Virus record (IMG/VR): IMGVR_UViG_2663763280_000004
Length of the DNA stretch: 5,396 bases
Strand: one strand, 5' to 3'
DNA from: a virus
Lineage: Duplodnaviria > Heunggongvirae > Uroviricota > Caudoviricetes
The notes beneath the pieces were generated by a model. That model saw nothing but the letters and a program-made list of their open reading frames with translations, did no database searches and was not told where the DNA came from. A program made the translations under genes and the position numbers. The stretch's first letter is position 1. Every line of letters begins with the position of its first letter. Below, piece after piece: positions 1 through 5,396 of this stretch.

Positions 1-2
1 CC

Positions 3-104
3 GTGCGCGTCGAGCCGATCGCCGATCAGCGCGCCGCCGAGCAGTACGTGATTGACGAGTACAACAAGTTGAAAACTCGCCTGCGANNAGAGCGCCTCTT
101 ATAA
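3..104 (+). CDS. 3' end of an unidentified CDS (partial, frame 3), reading ...VRVEPIADQRAAEQYVIDEYNKLKTRLRxERLL*; product not recognised
   Basis: Only frame open across 1-101, stop TAA at 102-104. Bases 1-50 are visibly GC-rich compared with the rest of the window. The frame passes through the N calls at 87-88 and overlaps the next gene. By synteny it could be the end of the usher gene yraJ, but the peptide does not look usher-like, so it may be a foreign fragment. Confidence 0.25.
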   Translation: MRVEPIADQRAAEQYVIDEYNKLKTRLRXERLL

Positions 105-1174
105 CAGGACTTTTGTTGATATCCACATCCTGCGCTTATGCCTCCTCAGGAGGGTGTGGAGCTGACAGCACTAGCGGTGCGACAAATTACAGCAGTGTGG
201 TTGATGATGTTACGGTGAACCAGACAGATAACGTGACAGGACGGGAGTTTACCTCTGCCACGCTAAGTAGCACTAACTGGCAATACGCCTGTACCTGCTC
301 TGCGGGTAAGGCAGTTAAACTTGTCTATATGGTCAGCCCTGTACTTACCACCACTGGACATCAAGCAGGATATTACAAACTCAATGATAGTCTGGATATT
401 AAAACCACATTACAGGCGAATGACATTCCAGGACTCGTGACTGACCAGACCGTTTCTGTTAACACCCGATTCACACAGATAAAAAGCAACACCGTATATT
501 CTGCTGCAACCCAAACGGGTGTTTGCCAGGGTGACACGTCTCGTTATGGACCCGTTAATATTGGTGCAAATACCACCTTTACCCTGTATGTCACCAAGCC
601 ATTTCTCGGCTCGATGACCATTCCGAAAACGGATATTGCCGTCATTAAAGGCGCATGGGTCGATGGAATGGGAAGCCCGTCTACAGGTGACTTCCATGAT
701 TTAGTCAAGTTATCGATTCAGGGAAATCTCACCGCCCCACAGTCGTGCAAAATTAATCAGGGCGATGTTATTAAGGTTAATTTTGGATTCATCAATGGTC
801 AGAAGTTTACCACCCGCAATGCCATGCCAGACGGTTTTACTCCAGTAGACTTTAATATCACTTATGACTGTGGTGATACTTCAAAGATTAAAAACTCGTT
901 GCAAATGCGCATCGACGGTACAACTGGGGTAGTAGACCAGTACAACCTGGTCGCCAGACGAAGAAGTTCAGACAATGCGCCCGATGTCGGTATTCGTATT
1001 GAAAATCTCGGCGGCGGAGTTGCAAATATTCCTTTTCAGAACGGTATCCTTCCCGTTGATCCTTCCGGGCATGGCACCATCAACATGCGCGCCTGGCCAG
1101 TTAATCTGGTCGGTGGTGAGCTGGAAACAGGAAAATTTCAGGGCACCGCCACCATTACCGTCATCGTGCGGTAA
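86..1174 (+). CDS. yraK: Fimbrial adhesin-like protein (YraK-like); start codon ambiguous
   Basis: Open frame ending at TAA 1172-1174; the ORF track starts it at TTG 113. Extending in frame to aNN at 86-88 gives (M)RAPLITGLLLISTSCAYA/SSGG, a typical Sec signal peptide with an AxA cleavage site, if aNN is ATG. That yields 362 aa. The position, convergent on rsmI, matches the yraHIJK-rsmI arrangement of E. coli K-12. The symbol rests on synteny rather than a recalled sequence. Confidence 0.6.
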   Translation, partial: XRAPLITGLLLISTSCAYASSGGCGADSTSGATNYSSVVDDVTVNQTDNVTGREFTSATLSSTNWQYACTCSAGKAVKLVYMVSPVLTTTGHQAGYYKLNDSLDIKTTLQANDIPGLVTDQTVSVNTRFTQIKSNTVYSAATQTGVCQGDTSRYGPVNIGANTTFTLYVTKPFLGSMTIPKTDIAVIKGAWVDGMGSPSTGDFHDLVKLSIQGNLTAPQSCKINQGDVIKVNFGFINGQKFTTRNAMPDGFTPVDFNITYDCGDTSKIKNSLQMRIDGTTGVVDQYNLVARRRSSDNAPDVGIRIENLGGGVANIPFQNGILPVDPSGHGTINMRAWPVNLVGGELETGKFQGTATITVIVR

Positions 1175-1181
1175 AAGAAGA

Positions 1182-1205
1182 CGTTGCGTTTTGATTAACG
1201 CAACG
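1182..1205 (-). terminator. Hairpin terminator between convergent yraK and rsmI
   Basis: Perfect 9-bp inverted repeat, cgttgcgtt (1182-1190) and aacgcaacg (1197-1205), with a 6-nt loop. On the minus strand it is followed by TCTTCTTTTAC (complement of 1171-1181), so it fits best as the rsmI terminator. It lies 8 nt after the yraK stop. Confidence 0.5.
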
Positions 1206-1216
1206 CTTCGGCACTC

Positions 1217-1600
1217 TTACCCCTGCTGCTCCAGCGCATACTTATACAGCGCATTTTTCTTCACGCCGTGAATTTCTGCCGCCAGCGCCGCCGCTTTTTT
1301 CAACGGCAGTTCTGCCTGTAGCAGCGCCAGCGTGCGCAGGGCATCGGCGGGTAAGTCTTCTTCCTGTGCTTTATGACCTTCGATAATCAGCACCATTTCG
1401 CCTTTGCGACGGTTTTCATCTTCTTTTACCCACGCCAGCAGCTCGCCAACGGGCGCGCCGTGAATGGTTTCCCAGGTTTTGGTCAGCTCACGCGCCAGAA
1501 CCACGTAGCGGGATTCGCCTAATACCGCAACGATATCTTCCAGGCTATCTAACAGACGGTGGGTGGATTCATAAAAAATCAGCGTGCGCGGCTCCGCTTC
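1217..1600 (-). CDS. rsmI: 16S rRNA 2'-O-ribose C1402 methyltransferase RsmI (YraL), C-terminal ~127 aa only; 5' part absent beyond the junction at 1601
   Basis: Minus-strand translation reads [72 protein letters not shown]...YKYALEQQG*, which matches my recollection of the E. coli RsmI C-terminus. The frame is not continued past nn at 1601-1602. Confidence 0.85.
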
Positions 1601-1602
1601 NN

Positions 1603-1731
1603 GGTATTGCCTTCGACGGCGATGGCGATCGCGTGATTATGGTCGACCATGAAGGCAATAAAGTCGATGGCGATCAGATCATGTATATCATCGCGCGTGA
1701 AGGTCTTCGTCAGGGCCNGNTGNGTCGTGGC
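1603..1731 (+). pseudogene. glmM: Internal fragment (about 43 codons) of phosphoglucosamine mutase gene glmM, with no start or stop of its own
   Basis: Plus-strand translation [38 protein letters not shown](Q)(L)R contains the phosphohexomutase metal-binding loop DGDGDR and matches recalled E. coli GlmM. N calls at 1718, 1720 and 1723. The frame runs into a stop at 1735-1737 after leaving glmM-like sequence. Confidence 0.7.
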
Positions 1732-1882
1732 TTCTGATTTTTGCCATGAGTTCATCAGTCAATTCAGAAACCCACTGCAGAGCCAGCCCCTTCTCTTCAT
1801 CACTACACTCACTAGCCGCTACAAGCTTAAGAAAAAAATCAATGCGCTGGAGCTTCAAAGACTCCAAAAAATAGTCCTGCAT
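1732..1882 (-). CDS. Small prophage ORF, N-terminal ~50 aa only, behind a LexA-box promoter; possibly a Tum/DinI-like SOS-inducible antirepressor. 3' end lost at the junction
   Basis: ATG at 1880-1882 (minus) preceded by AGGAGG (complement of 1887-1892). Translation is MQDYFLESLKLQRIDFFLKLVAASECSDEEKGLALQWVSELTDELMAKIR. It lies immediately downstream of gene A in the same orientation, as tum does in phage 186. The functional guess is by context only. Confidence 0.45.
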
Positions 1883-1907
1883 CTTTCCTCCTATGACACC
1901 AAAGCAA

Positions 1908-1942
1908 TACTGTATACATAACCACTGTTTATATTTACAGTA
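1908..1942 (-). promoter_or_regulatory. LexA (SOS) operator with overlapping putative sigma70 promoter for the small ORF
   Basis: 1923-1942 CACTGTTTATATTTACAGTA fits the LexA consensus TACTGTATATATATACAGTA, with exact CTGT-N8-ACAG and an AT-rich spacer. An adjacent half-site TACTGTATA sits at 1908-1916. On the minus strand a candidate -35 TTTACA (complement of 1960-1965) and -10 TATACT (complement of 1939-1944) overlap the box, although the 15-nt spacing is short. Confidence 0.6.
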
Positions 1943-2034
1943 TATAATAATCTTACTGATGTAAAACGTTTTTTTACGTTCATCAGCCTGATATGCCTGG
2001 TATTATTAAGAGCACGAATTGTTAACCCGCGTAA

Positions 2035-4449
2035 TTAATACAGATTCCGCCACTTATCATCTTCCCGCAAACGCTGGTTCCGATAGAAGATACGCAGGCC
2101 TGCTCCTGACGGAATACTGCCACCGCGAAGGAGTAAATCGACCTCTTTCTCGCTGCCATCAAATCCTCTGGACTTCAGTTCATAGACGAGCTGCTGTCGC
2201 TGATGATCTGTAATTCGCTGTTTGTAGTCTTTACGCCGTTTCGGCTTAACCAGGCGTAACCTTGCTGCCAGTTCCCGGCGCTCTTTTTTGCTCATACTGT
2301 GCAGGTAATCGTGCAACTCCTTGTCATCCATGCGGGTAATGTCCGTTCTGGTGTCCCCATCAGCTGATTTATCTTTCTCCTGTTGGTTCAAATTTTCCGC
2401 AAGGGGACAGTTATTGCCACGAGTCCAAGGGGCGCAAGCGCCCTGGTCGGCTGCCGCCTCCTGAACGTCAACGGCCTTACGAACCATTTTCCACTTCACG
2501 GCATGAGTGCAGATCTTGCCCTCTGCAATAGGTGACCAGATGCCATAAATACGAATGCCGTGATCGCCATAGGCGGTCGGCTCTTCGTTGATTTCATAAG
2601 CGGTTCTGATGAGGTGATATTTGCGGGGAACCAGTACGCCGCCCTGCTTCATGATGTAGGTGGCAAAACAACCAGCATCAGCAGCAGCCAGAATGGCATC
2701 AAGGCGCGGGTTATCCAGTACCGGCGCACCTGCTTTTTTGTCACCCTGCTGCCTTGCCGCCTGACCAGCCAGCAATCGCAGTTCACGGTAAGCCTGACGC
2801 CCCGGAATACCAAAGAAGCGGAATTGCTGAACACGATGCAGAGACGCCCAGGCATTCACGTATTCAGCGTTATCACGCAGAGATTTACCCGTTTCCTTGC
2901 TGATCTCGCCAGCCAGACCACGCCCGTCAATGTTCTTACTGATATATTTCGCGATGTAGCTTGTCGGCGTTCCTTTGCGCGGATTAATCAGCTCAGACTT
3001 AAAGCGCGGCCCAGTGTTATTTCCCAGCTCCTCGCGGTCTTCACGGATGGCAAACTTACGCAGTAATGCAGTGATGGCGCGGCGGTCTTTTTTGCGCATA
3101 AAACACAACAGGTGCCAGTGAACTGTACCGTCATGATGCGGCTCAGCCACCCGCACGCCATACCACCGCAATCCGGCTTTGTGCATCGCCTTACGAAATG
3201 CAGCAAACATGCCGACCAGATAATCACTGCTTTGTCTTACCGTCGCATTTGTCCAGGTCGGGTTGGGCCTGCCGTTATTTAGCGTGGAATGGAAACGTGA
3301 CGGACAGGTGATGGTGTAGAAAACGGCGCAGTCACCGCGCATTTCCGCGATAAGCTCCAGACCTTTAACACAGGCCATCATCTCATTGCGGCGATGCGCA
3401 GGGTTGCTGCTGCTGGCGTTTACCACATCCTCCATGTCCAGCGTGTCGCCGTCTTCGTTCACCAGTTCATGAGAACGGAAAAACTCCAGCGACTTACGGC
3501 GCTGCTCACGTTTATGCAACACGGCTTCATAGCTGACATAGGGAGATGCTTTTTTGCTGACAAGGCAGACAGCACGCAACTGCTCTTCCCGCCATTCGCA
3601 ACGCATCTTCCATAATTTCCGATACCACCAGTCGGCGCACAACATACGCGCCAGCGAACCCGGAATGAGTTCATAGGGCACGGGTTTACGGCGGTTTCTT
3701 TTCCGACGGAGTTGCTCAAACGCAGGAGGGATGACATCCAGACGCAGGGTTTCCGCCGCCACCCTTTCCCATGTCTTGCGGATTTCTTCTGGCTTAACGT
3801 CATCGGTGGCATACAAATCGCCACAAGCTGCATCAAGGCACATGCTCATATGCGCAGCAACAAGGGTGGACAGGCGTTTCACCTGATCCTGACTCATTTC
3901 AGGCAGAATCAGCAGGCCGTCCAGCCCTTCATGGCTTGCCATAAAGCGAAAAGAAGTGGATAGCTGACTGTCGCGTACATGCTCCAGCCGTTCCAGACAT
4001 GGCTTAATCGTCTCACGCAAATAGCGGGAATAAGCCTTTGGCCTGCCCAGGCTGCTGAAGTATTCAATACGTTGCATCAGCGGCCTGCTGATATGGGAAG
4101 GCTGGGCGTTAACGTCCGCCAGTATGACCATGTCCGGATTAAAACGCTGCTGCTCATGCGCCAGCTTTGCCCGGCTAATGAGCTTATCCTGCTCCATTTC
4201 GCGTTGGACAGGATCACGGGATTCATTAAAGAAATAACGCTCCCAGACCTGATCACTCAGTGCCTCGCGGCGCAGTTGTTCCTGCTCGTTATCGGCAGCG
4301 TACAGAGTGATCAGGTTTGAAAGCGCAGAAACCGGCGCAACTTCCGCCGGGTCCAGATAAGGGTTAATAGCCTTTTTCGGGCTGTTCCATGAGAATGCTG
4401 CGGCGACCTCGTTAACGCCGCTGCAGTTGTTCATATCGGCATGACTCAT
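2035..4449 (-). CDS. Phage P2 gpA-family replication initiation endonuclease (rolling-circle initiator)
   Basis: 804-aa ORF with GGAG 7 nt upstream of the ATG. It contains the metal-binding motif [13 protein letters not shown] (HWH at 3112-3120) and the twin-tyrosine motif [12 protein letters not shown] (Tyr codons 2956-2958 and 2944-2946). Both match my recollection of P2 gpA ([25 protein letters not shown]). Confidence 0.9.
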
Positions 4450-5110
4450 GCACGTACTCCGTACACGGCAGAACTATCCACGCCACGTGAATAATCAAAT
4501 CCCACCCAGCAGCGCGGCCCGGAAACAGCAATGATTTCTGTTGCAGATTTACTCTCGCCAGCCGACACGCCGATGCTGCGTTTTGCCTTGATGTAGTGGT
4601 GAGTGAAATTGCGATACAGCGAACGAATCAGGGATGTGTCACTGTTAGAAACAATGACCGGATGACCTTCAGATGATCGATGTTCAAGAACGGATGCCAG
4701 GTGATACTGGTCATCTTCAGTGAAGCCGTCAGTGTGATAACCGGAAAACGTGCCGTCATACGGCGGATCGCAATACACCACATCCCCCGCGTGCAACATC
4801 GCCAGCGTTTCATCGAAGCTGGCGCAGATAAACGTTGCCCGCTGGGCTTTTACTGCAAATGCACGAATTTCTTTTTCAGGGAAATACGGATTTTTATAAT
4901 TACCGTAGGGAATGTTGAAATGCCCGCTCTTGTTATAGCGACATAAACCACGGTAACCGTGACGATTGAGATACAGGAAATATATCGCTTTCATGAAATC
5001 AGTAATTTCAGTTGAGTAATTAAACTCCTGCCTTATGTTGTAATAATCCATCTCCCTGTTTGCGTTCTCAAATAAAACTCTGGCGCGAGATATAAACGAT
5101 TCACAATCAG
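4446..5110 (-). pseudogene. dam: Phage-type DNA adenine methyltransferase (Dam-like), 5'-truncated by IS1 insertion
   Basis: Minus-strand translation from the IS1 boundary reads DCESFISRARVLFENANREMDYYNIRQEFN...[18 protein letters not shown]...VVYCDPPY.... This aligns with E. coli Dam from about residue 68 onward, including the DPPY catalytic motif. The N-terminal ~67 aa carrying the AdoMet-binding motif are missing; the frame continues into IS1 sequence and stops at 5199-5201. Stop TGA (4446-4448) overlaps the gene A ATG (4447-4449). Confidence 0.85.
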
Positions 5111-5396
5111 GGTGATGCTGCCAACTTACTGATTTAGTGTATGATGGTGTTTTTGAGGTGCTCCAGTGGCTTCTGTTTCTATCAGCTGTCCCTCCTGTTC
5201 AGCTACTGACGGGGTGGTGCGTAACGGCAAAAGCACTGCCGGACATCAGCGCTATCTCTGCTCTCACTGCCGTAAAACATGGCAACTGCAGTTCACTTAC
5301 ACCGCTTCTCAACCCGGTACGCACCAGAAAATCATTGATATGGCCATGAATGGCGTTGGATGCCGGGCAACAGCCCGCATTATGGGCGTTGGCCTC
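5111..5396 (+). mobile_element. IS1 insertion sequence, left end, continuing past the window edge
   Basis: 5111-5133 GGTGATGCTGCCAACTTACTGAT is the IS1 left terminal inverted repeat. The following 286 bp match recalled canonical IS1 almost base for base. Confidence 0.95.
5166..5396 (+). CDS. insA: IS1 InsA, partial (77 of 91 codons), GTG start
   Basis: Translation from GTG 5166 reads [77 protein letters not shown], which is canonical InsA. The ORF-track entry 5137..5349 is a different frame. Confidence 0.9.

What the first reader, a model, noticed from the sequence alone, without database searches (positions are those of the whole stretch)
1880..1990. SOS-box promoter immediately downstream of gene A: a 186-type (inducible) rather than P2-type module
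A near-consensus LexA box, plus a second CTGT half-site 15 bp away, overlaps the putative -10 of a promoter driving a small ORF with a strong AGGAGG. In coliphage 186 the LexA-controlled tum gene lies downstream of A in the same orientation and makes the prophage UV-inducible. P2 itself is not SOS-inducible. If the ORF is Tum-like, this prophage couples induction to DNA damage. The ORF is cut off after about 50 codons by the junction, so its identity cannot be confirmed here.
Basis: partly seen in the sequence, partly recalled or inferred. Interest (0 to 1): 0.5.

Follow-up and report, generated by a model that had tools for sequence, protein, structure and literature searches.

The report
LexA-controlled tum antirepressor promoter, P2-like prophage
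This is the DNA-damage switch of a common Fels-2/186-type P2-like prophage: a LexA-repressed promoter driving a small antirepressor gene (tumA). A 96%-identical prophage in E. coli HS has already been shown to need this gene and cleavable LexA for induction, so the finding is correct but ordinary.

Summary
On the minus strand, 152 nt downstream of the P2-type replication gene A (2035-4449), the layout is TTTACA (1965-1960), 17 nt, TACTGT (1942-1937), then AGGAGG and ATG (1882). The -10 is the left arm of a 17/20 LexA box (1923-1942), which is unique in the window (0 of 200 shuffles). This copies the annotated 186 p95.

The ORF loses only its last 9 codons: intact copies give 62 aa. A separate 77-aa DinI-like gene follows in those copies and is lost here at an assembly junction. 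This is the known split tum (PSP3 tumA/tumB, Fels-2 STM2728).

The window's 53 codons match 52/53 the "tum" of E. coli HS prophage DuoHS. Deleting that gene, or making LexA non-cleavable, abolishes mitomycin C induction. The same segment occurs in about 1,100 of 5,426 complete E. coli genomes.

One addition: the "second CTGT half-site" is the outer arm of a second, overlapping LexA box. The pair matches the double SOS operator of colicin, cloacin and pesticin genes at 86-90% with identical spacing. It is conserved in 22 of 31 species-level loci and absent from 186 and PSP3.

Verdict: already known; low interest.

The parts
2035..4449 (-). Replication endonuclease gene A (P2 gpA family, 804 aa). 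The tum promoter lies downstream of it in the same orientation.
   Evidence: ORF list. Pfam PF05840 Phage_GPA, E 1.3e-127. Annotated 'replication endonuclease' in L001, Cartapus and HS.
1955..1987 (-). Imperfect palindrome/hairpin between the A stop codon and the tum promoter. Its 3' arm overlaps the -35. It may be a terminator or insulator for gene A transcripts, and it is specific to this lineage.
   Evidence: RNA fold -12.6 kcal/mol, z = -3.35, 0 of 200 shuffles fold as well. Not conserved as a hairpin in other genera. Not called by the terminator scan.
1969..1975 (-). A-tract (AAAAAAA) just upstream of the -35. It resembles a proximal UP-element.
   Evidence: An A-run followed by 2-3 nt precedes TTTACA in nearly all related loci. 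The UP-element reading is inference from general knowledge.
1960..1965 (-). -35 hexamer TTTACA of the tum promoter, the equivalent of 186 p95.
   Evidence: Sequence. TTTACA lies exactly 17 nt upstream of TACTGT in most of the 31 box-bearing loci, while the spacer sequence varies. Corresponds to the annotated 186 p95 -35 TTCACA.
1937..1942 (-). -10 hexamer TACTGT, which is also the left arm of LexA box 1.
   Evidence: Same hexamer and same relation to the LexA site as the annotated 186 p95 -10. TATACT (1944-1939, 15-nt spacer) is an alternative. No promoter is called at the generic scan's threshold.
1923..1942 (-). LexA box 1: TACTGTAAATATAAACAGTG, 17/20 to consensus.
   Evidence: unique in the window, 0 of 200 shuffles. 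Present in 31 of 33 species-level loci. Identical in E. coli HS and Fels-2.
1908..1927 (-). LexA box 2: CAGTGGTTATGTATACAGTA. Together the two form a colicin-type double SOS operator.
   Evidence: Inverted repeat I1. Pattern is unique in the window. Second arm conserved at +15 in 22 of 31 loci. 86-90% identical, with identical spacing, to the operators upstream of colicin N, pesticin and cloacin genes.
1887..1892 (-). Shine-Dalgarno sequence AGGAGG, 4 nt before the ATG.
   Evidence: Sequence. (T)AGGAGG(G/A)AA conserved across loci.
1724..1882 (-). tumA-type antirepressor ORF: the first 53 of 62 codons, cut by the junction.
   Evidence: 52/53 identical to the E. coli HS 'tum' product. PHROG profiles link it to the 186 Tum N-terminus. 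hhalign gives the same register, P = 3e-4. The published delta-tum primers flank exactly this ORF.
1718..1723 (.). Junction with ambiguous bases, joining the phage segment to a glmM fragment. It removes the last 9 tumA codons and the DinI-like tumB gene.
   Evidence: N at 1718, 1720 and 1723. Homology to the HS prophage ends at 1725. The left-hand pieces map to separate chromosomal places.
4446..5110 (-). Phage dam methylase lacking about its first 65 codons. It is interrupted at about 5110 by IS1 (InsA, from 5166 to the end of the window).
   Evidence: TIGR00571 and PF02086 match profile positions 66-68 onward. InsA domains. Homology to HS ends at 5110.

Best explanation
The region is the SOS-controlled promoter and the start of the tumA gene of a Fels-2/DuoHS-type P2-like (Peduoviridae) prophage.

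In the lysogen, LexA occupies an operator that covers the -10 and the transcription start of a sigma-70 promoter (TTTACA, 17 nt, TACTGT), so tumA is silent. In this lineage the operator consists of two overlapping LexA boxes offset by 15 bp, as in colicin operons. It probably binds two LexA dimers, giving very tight repression and late, high-threshold induction.

DNA damage activates RecA, and LexA then cleaves itself. The promoter fires and makes the 62-aa TumA protein and, in intact copies, a DinI-like TumB from the next gene. TumA binds the 186-type CI repressor and stops it binding its operators, which releases the lytic promoter and induces the prophage. TumB probably modulates RecA filaments and the SOS response.

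Shown here:
- the sequence anatomy;
- its non-random nature and its cross-species conservation;
- homology to 186 p95/Tum and PSP3 tumA/tumB;
- near-identity to the genetically tested HS prophage.

Taken from the literature:
- tum and cleavable LexA are required for induction (DuoHS);
- Tum is an antirepressor of CI (186);
- the upstream half carries the antirepressor activity (PSP3).

Inferred:
- direct LexA binding to both boxes;
- the transcription start site;
- the TumA-CI contact in this lineage;
- whether this particular copy is functional.

The confidence of 0.9 applies to the LexA-controlled tumA antirepressor reading. The claim that both boxes bind LexA is weaker, at about 0.65.
For: - Box statistics: the 17/20 LexA box and the double-box pattern are each unique in the window, with 0 of 200 shuffles matching.
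- Promoter: the layout is the same as the annotated 186 p95/LexA site.
- Footprint: among 33 species-level loci encoding the protein, 31 have a CTG-N10-CAG box. Most have TTTACA at a fixed 17-nt distance despite variable spacers and leaders. 22 have the second arm at +15. Gene A lies upstream in nearly all.
- Intact copies: the order is A, then a 62-aa ORF, then 10 nt, then a 77-aa DinI-like gene. This matches PSP3, annotated tumA 'UV induction of prophage' and tumB.
- Homology of the downstream gene: it is 41% identical to the Tum C-terminus, E 3e-24, and matches Pfam DinI.
- Homology of the 62-aa ORF: it is linked to the Tum N-terminus by reciprocal PHROG hits (phrog_698, 8554, 1993; residues 7-44 in both). 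hhalign gives the same register, P 3e-4, with a shared invariant Cys26.
- Identity to the tested prophage: window 1725-5110 is 96.0% identical to the E. coli HS prophage, with the -35, spacer and box 1 identical and TumA 52/53 identical.
- Experiment: delta-tum and lexA(Ind-) HS strains fail to lyse or form viral foci after mitomycin C (PMC11195241; PMC12055606). The deletion primers match the start and stop of exactly this ORF.
- Literature on split tum: Fels-2 and PSP3 have tum split in two, and the upstream half is the antirepressor (PMC3121763). Loss of Fels-2 rescues lexA-null Salmonella.
- Repressor type: relatives have 186-type CI and CII.
- Double box: it is 86-90% identical to the operators upstream of colicin N, pesticin and cloacin genes. 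[quoted passage not shown] 109 of 120 sampled viral contigs with the pattern have tumA directly downstream.
Against: - The generic promoter scan finds no site at its 9/12 threshold, because TACTGT scores only 3/6 as a -10.
- BLASTP sees no similarity between the 62-aa ORF and 186 Tum. The hhalign probability is only 39%. No Pfam, NCBIfam or PDB match exists.
- The left arm of box 2 is degenerate (GTGG instead of CTGT).
- No LexA binding data or mapped transcription start for this promoter were accessible.
- lexA(Ind-) blocks all SOS functions, so the genetics do not by themselves prove direct LexA control of this promoter.
- In this window the gene is truncated, its DinI-like partner and the CI region are absent, and dam is interrupted by IS1. 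The functionality of this copy therefore cannot be judged.
- The primary papers on Fels-2 tum and 186 p95 (Bunny 2002, Brumby 1996) could not be read.
Confidence: 0.9

Rival explanations
1. The operator is functionally a single LexA box, as in 186 and PSP3. The second CTGT/ACAG half-site does not bind LexA, and it is conserved for another reason, such as leader RNA structure or shared ancestry among close relatives.
For: The left arm of box 2 is degenerate (GTGG) and box 2 matches the consensus at only 15/20. 9 of 31 loci, plus 186 and PSP3, have one box and presumably work. No binding data are available.
Against: The second arm stays at exactly +15 in 22 loci across many genera, while the neighbouring leader and the inner box-2 positions vary. 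The same 39-nt architecture, including the GTGG deviation, is the colicin/cloacin/pesticin operator, which is reported to bind two LexA dimers.
Confidence: 0.25
2. In this genome the module is a dead remnant. The prophage is decayed, with tumA truncated and dam hit by IS1, so the promoter no longer couples anything to DNA damage.
For: The ORF ends at a junction after 53 of 62 codons, and the DinI-like gene, CI and structural genes are absent from the window. IS1 InsA abuts a 5'-truncated dam.
Against: The junctions carry ambiguous bases and join fragments that are unlinked in 5,426 reference genomes, which is typical of assembly joins and repeat-ended contigs. The phage segment is otherwise 96-97% identical to intact prophages, with an intact gene A and promoter.
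Confidence: 0.2
3. The LexA-like palindrome is a chance AT-rich inverted repeat, and the small ORF is not a real or SOS-regulated gene.
For: The region is AT-rich. With one mismatch allowed, CTGT-N8-ACAG is expected about 1.9 times per window by chance. No promoter is called by the generic scan. The protein is annotated 'hypothetical' almost everywhere.
Against: The 20-mer and the double pattern never occur in shuffles. The box, -35, RBS and ORF are conserved across genera. The family has 484 detected homologues. Deleting the orthologue abolishes induction.
Confidence: 0.02
4. The small ORF is a DinI-type modulator of RecA, or an unrelated regulator (some records call it 'levan regulatory protein'), rather than an antirepressor.
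For: Some database names say 'levan regulatory (domain) protein'. 186 Tum is labelled 'DinI' in RefSeq.
Against: The 62-aa protein has no DinI Pfam match, whereas the next gene has one (E 7e-23). It aligns to the non-DinI N-terminal part of Tum. The PSP3 upstream half is reported to be the antirepressor. The delta-tum phenotype in HS removes only this ORF.
Confidence: 0.03

Closest known systems
E. coli HS prophage 'DuoHS' tum (EcHS_A0919 / ECHS_RS04495) and Salmonella Fels-2 STM2728-STM2726.1
   Same: Same position after gene A. The -35, spacer and LexA box 1 are identical, and the double-box layout is the same. TumA is 52/53 (HS) identical over the part present. DNA identity across window 1725-5110 is 96.0% to HS and 86.0% to Fels-2. 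Tum and cleavable LexA are required for mitomycin C induction in HS.
   Different: The window copy is cut 9 codons before the stop and lacks the DinI-like gene. A few substitutions lie inside box 2 and the leader. dam is interrupted by IS1.
Coliphage 186 SOS operon (p95, tum, orf97)
   Same: Same location downstream of A and same orientation. The promoter has its -10 TACTGT as the left arm of a LexA box. The product is an antirepressor of a 186-type CI. A DinI-like moiety is encoded in the operon.
   Different: 186 Tum is one 146-aa fusion with nested internal starts, whereas here there are two genes. The N-terminal part is similar only at profile level. 186 has a single LexA box and an 18-nt spacer. 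orf97 has no counterpart in Fels-2 or HS.
Phage PSP3 tumA/tumB
   Same: Split arrangement: a small tumA (60 aa, annotated 'UV induction of prophage') is followed by a DinI-like tumB. Both lie downstream of A behind a LexA box. The upstream gene is reported to carry the antirepressor activity.
   Different: TumA is only about 17% identical. PSP3 has a single LexA box and a 3-nt intergenic gap rather than 10 nt.
Double overlapping SOS boxes of colicin, cloacin and pesticin operons
   Same: The 39-nt operator CTGT-N8-(A/C)CAG-TGGTTAT-N4-ACAGTATT has identical spacing and is 86-90% identical, including the degenerate GTGG left arm of box 2. Both control a product whose expression kills the cell.
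   Different: The tum operator controls a phage antirepressor, not a bacteriocin. In the colicin promoters the TTGACA -35 and the -10 lie further upstream, so the boxes sit just after the -10 rather than containing it. Similarity does not extend beyond the operator.
Gifsy GfoA/GftA and N15 AntC LexA-controlled antirepressors
   Same: Same logic: LexA represses a small antirepressor that inactivates a non-cleavable repressor, and a dinI homologue sits in the same operon.
   Different: The proteins are unrelated and the gene order is reversed (dinI first). They belong to lambdoid or N15 phages rather than P2-like phages.

Membership tests
186-type SOS (tum) module of P2-like phages | Located downstream of replication gene A, in the same orientation | tested here: met
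   A is at 2035-4449 (-) and the ORF start is at 1882 (-). Same order in 186, PSP3, Fels-2 and HS.
186-type SOS (tum) module of P2-like phages | Promoter overlapped by a LexA box | tested here: met
   TTTACA-17-TACTGT, with the box at 1923-1942 scoring 17/20. Same layout as the annotated 186 p95. Conserved in 31 of 33 loci. The generic scan is below threshold.
186-type SOS (tum) module of P2-like phages | [quoted passage not shown] | tested here: met
   Reciprocal PHROG profile hits over residues 7-44. hhalign gives the same register, P 3e-4, probability 39%. BLASTP is negative. The homology is remote but supported by synteny.
186-type SOS (tum) module of P2-like phages | DinI-like moiety in the same transcription unit | tested here: inconclusive
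   Absent from the window because of the junction at 1718-1723. Present as a separate gene 10 nt downstream in L001, Cartapus, Fels-2 and HS. Absent in 13 of 33 related loci.
186-type SOS (tum) module of P2-like phages | Partner 186-type CI repressor (with Apl and CII) rather than P2 C/Cox | tested here: inconclusive
   Not in the window. The 96-97% identical intact relatives have CI 33% identical to 186 CI (E 7e-38) and CII 69% identical.
186-type SOS (tum) module of P2-like phages | SOS-dependent prophage induction that requires tum and cleavable LexA | not testable with these tools
   Reported for the orthologous HS prophage. Fels-2 is lethal in lexA-null Salmonella.
Split tum (tumA + tumB; PSP3/Fels-2 type) | Small stand-alone antirepressor ORF ending in a stop codon, followed by a separate DinI-like ORF | tested here: met
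   The orthologous ORF is 62 aa, with a stop codon and a 10-nt gap before the 77-aa DinI-like gene. The window holds the first 53 codons. The split is described in PMC3121763.
DinI family (PF06183) | Match of the window ORF to the DinI profile | tested here: not met
   The 62-aa ORF has no Pfam or NCBIfam family. Only the downstream gene matches DinI.
Colicin-type double overlapping SOS operator | Two LexA boxes overlapping, offset by 15 bp, with the conserved CAGTGG junction | tested here: met
   86-90% identity to the colicin N, pesticin and cloacin operators.
Colicin-type double overlapping SOS operator | Binds two LexA dimers | not testable with these tools
   Stated for colicin operators in PMC2994835. 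No data exist for tum.
Colicin-type double overlapping SOS operator | Controls a bacteriocin activity gene | tested here: not met
   Here the downstream gene is tumA. The operator therefore works like the colicin one but is not part of a bacteriocin operon.
P2-type non-inducible arrangement | orf91, tin and old after gene A, with no LexA-controlled antirepressor | tested here: not met
   P2 annotation. The only perfect CTGT-N8-ACAG in the P2 region lies inside old, which is within chance expectation. The window has the tum module instead.

The most novel reading that the evidence does not exclude
The tumA promoter of the Fels-2/DuoHS lineage does not use a simple 186-like SOS box. It uses the colicin-type overlapping double LexA operator, essentially the same 39-nt cassette found upstream of colicin N, cloacin and pesticin genes. 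This would imply either exchange of an operator cassette between Col plasmids and P2-like phages, or strong convergence. Functionally, it would set an unusually tight, late, bistable threshold for prophage induction compared with single-box relatives such as 186 and PSP3. I found no description of this in the accessible literature, but the key older papers could not be read.
Probability: 0.45. Interest if true: 0.35.

Novelty: already known. Interest (0 to 1): 0.17.

Why it matters
The module decides whether a very common class of E. coli, Salmonella and Klebsiella P2-like prophages is induced by DNA-damaging agents, including antibiotics such as fluoroquinolones. That in turn affects phage release and gene transfer. 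This is already established for 186, PSP3, Fels-2 and the HS prophage, so the window adds only another copy. The one point of some further interest is the colicin-type double operator. If it really binds two LexA dimers, it would explain tight silencing and delayed, all-or-none induction in this lineage, and it offers a natural single-box versus double-box comparison.

Tried and rejected
- The generic promoter/terminator scan of 1700-2100 found nothing at its thresholds. The promoter was assigned by homology and footprint instead.
- BLASTP of the 62-aa ORF against 186 Tum found nothing. Profile methods were needed.
- Pfam, NCBIfam and PDB sequence searches of the 62-aa protein found nothing.
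- The first primer search failed because the primer carries a non-genomic 5' TCA. It was repeated with the genomic part only.
- The upstream palindrome was considered as a conserved terminator or regulatory hairpin. This was rejected as a general feature because other genera lack it.
- An orf97 homologue downstream in Fels-2 or HS was considered. None was found.
- A literature search by sequence string was uninformative.
- Bunny et al. 2002 (PMC151935) and Gillor et al. 2008 (PMC2729051) are not held. Brumby 1996 and Shearwin 1998 are known only through citations.
- Structure prediction of TumA was not run, because it would not change the verdict.
- I did not compute a heterology-index or PSSM score for box 2. 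I had no verified LexA site table and did not want to rely on sites recalled from memory.

Full report
**What is in the window**

The 5,396-base window is a patchwork. Ambiguous bases at about 87, 1601 and 1718-1723 separate several pieces:
- Positions 89-1600 are one contiguous yraK-rsmI segment in reference E. coli genomes.
- The two short pieces on either side of it map elsewhere.
- Positions 1725-5110 form a single phage segment.
- From about 5111 the sequence is IS1 (InsA domains).

The phage segment carries three features on the minus strand:
- a dam methylase lacking about its first 65 residues;
- the 804-aa replication gene A at 2035-4449 (Pfam Phage_GPA, E 1e-127);
- after a 152-nt intergenic region, a small ORF that starts at 1882 and runs 53 codons into the junction.

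**Checking the observation**

- One perfect CTGT-N8-ACAG lies at 1925-1940.
- The 20-mer at 1923-1942 (TACTGTAAATATAAACAGTG) matches the LexA consensus at 17/20. It is the only such site in the window, and none occurred in 200 shuffles.
- The second CTGT is at 1910-1913, exactly 15 bp away.
- AGGAGG lies 4 nt before the ATG.

The generic sigma-70 scan calls no promoter at its threshold. However, the minus strand reads TTTACA (1965-1960), 17 nt, TACTGT (1942-1937). The -10 is therefore the left arm of the LexA box. The GenBank annotation of coliphage 186 gives p95 the same relationship: -35 TTCACA, 18 nt, -10 TACTGT, with the LexA site starting at the -10.

**Identity of the ORF**

The region is common. 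Megablast finds it at 95-99% identity in 48 phage records (Escherichia, Klebsiella, Salmonella, Felsduovirus) and in 1,104 of 5,426 complete E. coli genomes.

In intact copies the ORF is complete at 62 aa. It is followed 10 nt later by a separate 77-aa gene.
- The downstream gene is DinI-like (Pfam PF06183, E 7e-23). It is 41% identical to the C-terminal half of 186 Tum (E 3e-24).
- The 62-aa protein has no Pfam, NCBIfam or PDB match, and BLASTP shows no similarity to 186 Tum.
- Profiles do link it to the Tum N-terminus. It hits phrog_698, phrog_8554 and phrog_1993, and 186 Tum hits the same three, over residues 7-44 in both proteins.
- An hhalign comparison of the two family alignments aligns residues 3-43 of each in the same register (P = 3e-4, probability 39%), with an invariant Cys26 in both.

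PSP3 annotates the equivalent pair as tumA ('similar to 5' end 186 tum; UV induction of prophage') and tumB. Fels-2 has the same pair as STM2728 and STM2726.1. Lemire et al. [quoted passage not shown]

Most relatives of the 186 Tum N-terminus in the large protein collection are themselves stand-alone proteins of 63-90 aa, and several are named 'Tum protein'. Only its last 9 codons are missing. The DinI-like partner is lost at the junction.

**Experimental support from a near-identical orthologue**

The E. coli HS prophage (called 'P2' in the preprint and 'DuoHS' in the published paper) has the same order: A, a 62-aa ORF, then the DinI-like gene.
- Window 1725-5110 is 96.0% identical to it.
- The -35, spacer and LexA box 1 are identical.
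- The 53 window codons match its product at 52 positions.

The published delta-tum primers fuse ATG to TGA and continue with GGTGACTTTTATGCGCATTG. That sequence is the stop codon of the 62-aa ORF, the 10-nt gap and the start of the DinI-like gene. The genomic parts of the other primers match window 1880-1902 and 2010-2030 with one mismatch each. 'tum' in that work is therefore exactly this ORF.

Both the delta-tum and the lexA(Ind-) strains fail to lyse or form viral foci after mitomycin C (PMC11195241; PMC12055606). Loss of Fels-2 is what allows lexA-null Salmonella to survive (Bunny et al. 2002, as cited). The tum homologue of BTP5 is cited as the mark of a 186-like SOS operon in a P2-like prophage.

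Intact relatives carry a 186-type switch: CI is 33% identical to 186 CI (E 7e-38) and CII is 69% identical. P2, by contrast, has orf91/tin/old after A and no box there.

**Cross-species footprint**

I fetched 33 loci encoding the protein, one genome per species, from Escherichia, Citrobacter, Serratia, Kluyvera, Enterobacter, Klebsiella, Pantoea, Erwinia, Tatumella and others.
- 31 have a CTG-N10-CAG box upstream. Of the other two, one is cut by a contig end and one has a decayed box.
- TTTACA or a close variant lies exactly 17 nt upstream of TACTGT in nearly all, although the spacer sequence differs freely.
- The Shine-Dalgarno sequence is conserved.
- Gene A lies upstream in nearly all.
- A DinI-like gene follows in 20.

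An A-tract directly upstream of the -35 is also conserved. The palindrome at 1955-1987 is significant here (z = -3.35) but is not conserved in other genera.

**The second half-site**

In 22 of the 31 loci a second ACAG arm sits exactly 15 bp beyond the first. This makes a second 20-mer (window 1908-1927, CAGTGGTTATGTATACAGTA) that overlaps box 1 by 5 bp. The combined pattern never occurs in shuffles.

A 52-nt query spanning it hits about 200 plasmids, many of them small mobilizable Col-type plasmids. In the three I inspected, the match lies about 40 nt upstream of a bacteriocin gene: colicin N, pesticin and cloacin. The alignment shows identical spacing and 86-90% identity across the operator, including the shared GTGG deviation in the left arm of box 2. 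The flanks are unrelated, and the colicin -35 and -10 sit further upstream.

[quoted passage not shown] 186, PSP3 and the most divergent tumA loci have a single box.

I found no mention of a double operator at tum in the accessible literature. The older primary papers were not readable.

**Mechanism**

1. LexA occupies the operator, which covers the -10 and the start site, and keeps tumA silent.
2. DNA damage activates RecA and LexA cleaves itself.
3. The promoter fires, making TumA and, in intact copies, the DinI-like TumB.
4. TumA inactivates the 186-type CI and releases the lytic promoter.

The anatomy, statistics, conservation and homologies are shown here. The requirement for tum and cleavable LexA, and the antirepressor activity, come from the literature on orthologues. 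Direct LexA binding (one dimer or two), the transcription start and the TumA-CI contact in this lineage are inferred.

**Verdict**

The module is already known and has been genetically tested in a 96%-identical prophage. It is also extremely common. Interest is low. The one modestly new angle is the colicin-type double operator.

Noticed in passing
L007 (E. coli HS), L001 and L005 (Fels-2): tumA versus cI: TumA is 97-98% identical among HS, L001 and Fels-2, but their CI repressors are only 43-47% identical (HS versus L001: 87%). One antirepressor apparently serves heteroimmune repressors. This points either to a conserved CI target surface (RDSFPAEWVIQCALETG is identical in the N-terminal domain) or to mosaic exchange. 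It also raises the possibility of cross-induction between co-resident Fels-2-like prophages.
   Followed up: partly
window 1-1723: The window is a chimera of unlinked chromosomal fragments joined at ambiguous bases (about 87-88, 1601-1602, and 1718/1720/1723). Positions 89-1600 are yraK-rsmI, and 1603-1717 reads as a glmM fragment. The pieces map to about 3 separate places per reference genome. The N positions look like disagreeing columns of short spurious overlaps.
   Followed up: partly
window 4446-5396: The phage dam methylase lacks about its first 65 codons and abuts IS1 (InsA from 5166). This is either a genuine IS1 insertion in dam or another contig join at a repeat.
   Followed up: partly
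window 1969-1975 (-) and loci L011-L043: A conserved A-tract (AAAAAA followed by 2-3 nt) lies immediately upstream of the -35 TTTACA in nearly all tumA loci. It resembles a proximal UP-element subsite and suggests a strong promoter once LexA leaves.
   Followed up: no
window 1955-1987 (-): A palindrome overlaps the -35 (RNA fold -12.6 kcal/mol, z = -3.35). It is present in the Escherichia/Fels-2 lineage only. It may terminate gene A transcripts or compete with promoter use.
   Followed up: partly
loci L016, L020, L026, L030, L034-L041, L043: 13 of the 33 species-level loci have tumA but no DinI-like gene after it. This fits the view that the DinI-like partner is an accessory. The gene after it also varies: 186 orf97 has no counterpart in Fels-2 or HS.
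   Followed up: partly
L066, L134, L140, L132 and related viral contigs: 11 of 120 viral contigs with the double-box pattern do not have tumA downstream. L066 even carries a third LexA-like box just after the pair. These may be other phage genes under colicin-type double operators.
   Followed up: no
L003 4975-5015 (186) and L006 (PSP3), upstream of p95: 186 and PSP3 share a conserved stretch upstream of the p95 -35. In 186 it reads ATATCATGTACATACAGTGTATTTAACTGTGATTTTTTT, and it contains ACAG/CTGT motifs in an arrangement that is not a LexA box. Its function is unknown.
   Followed up: no
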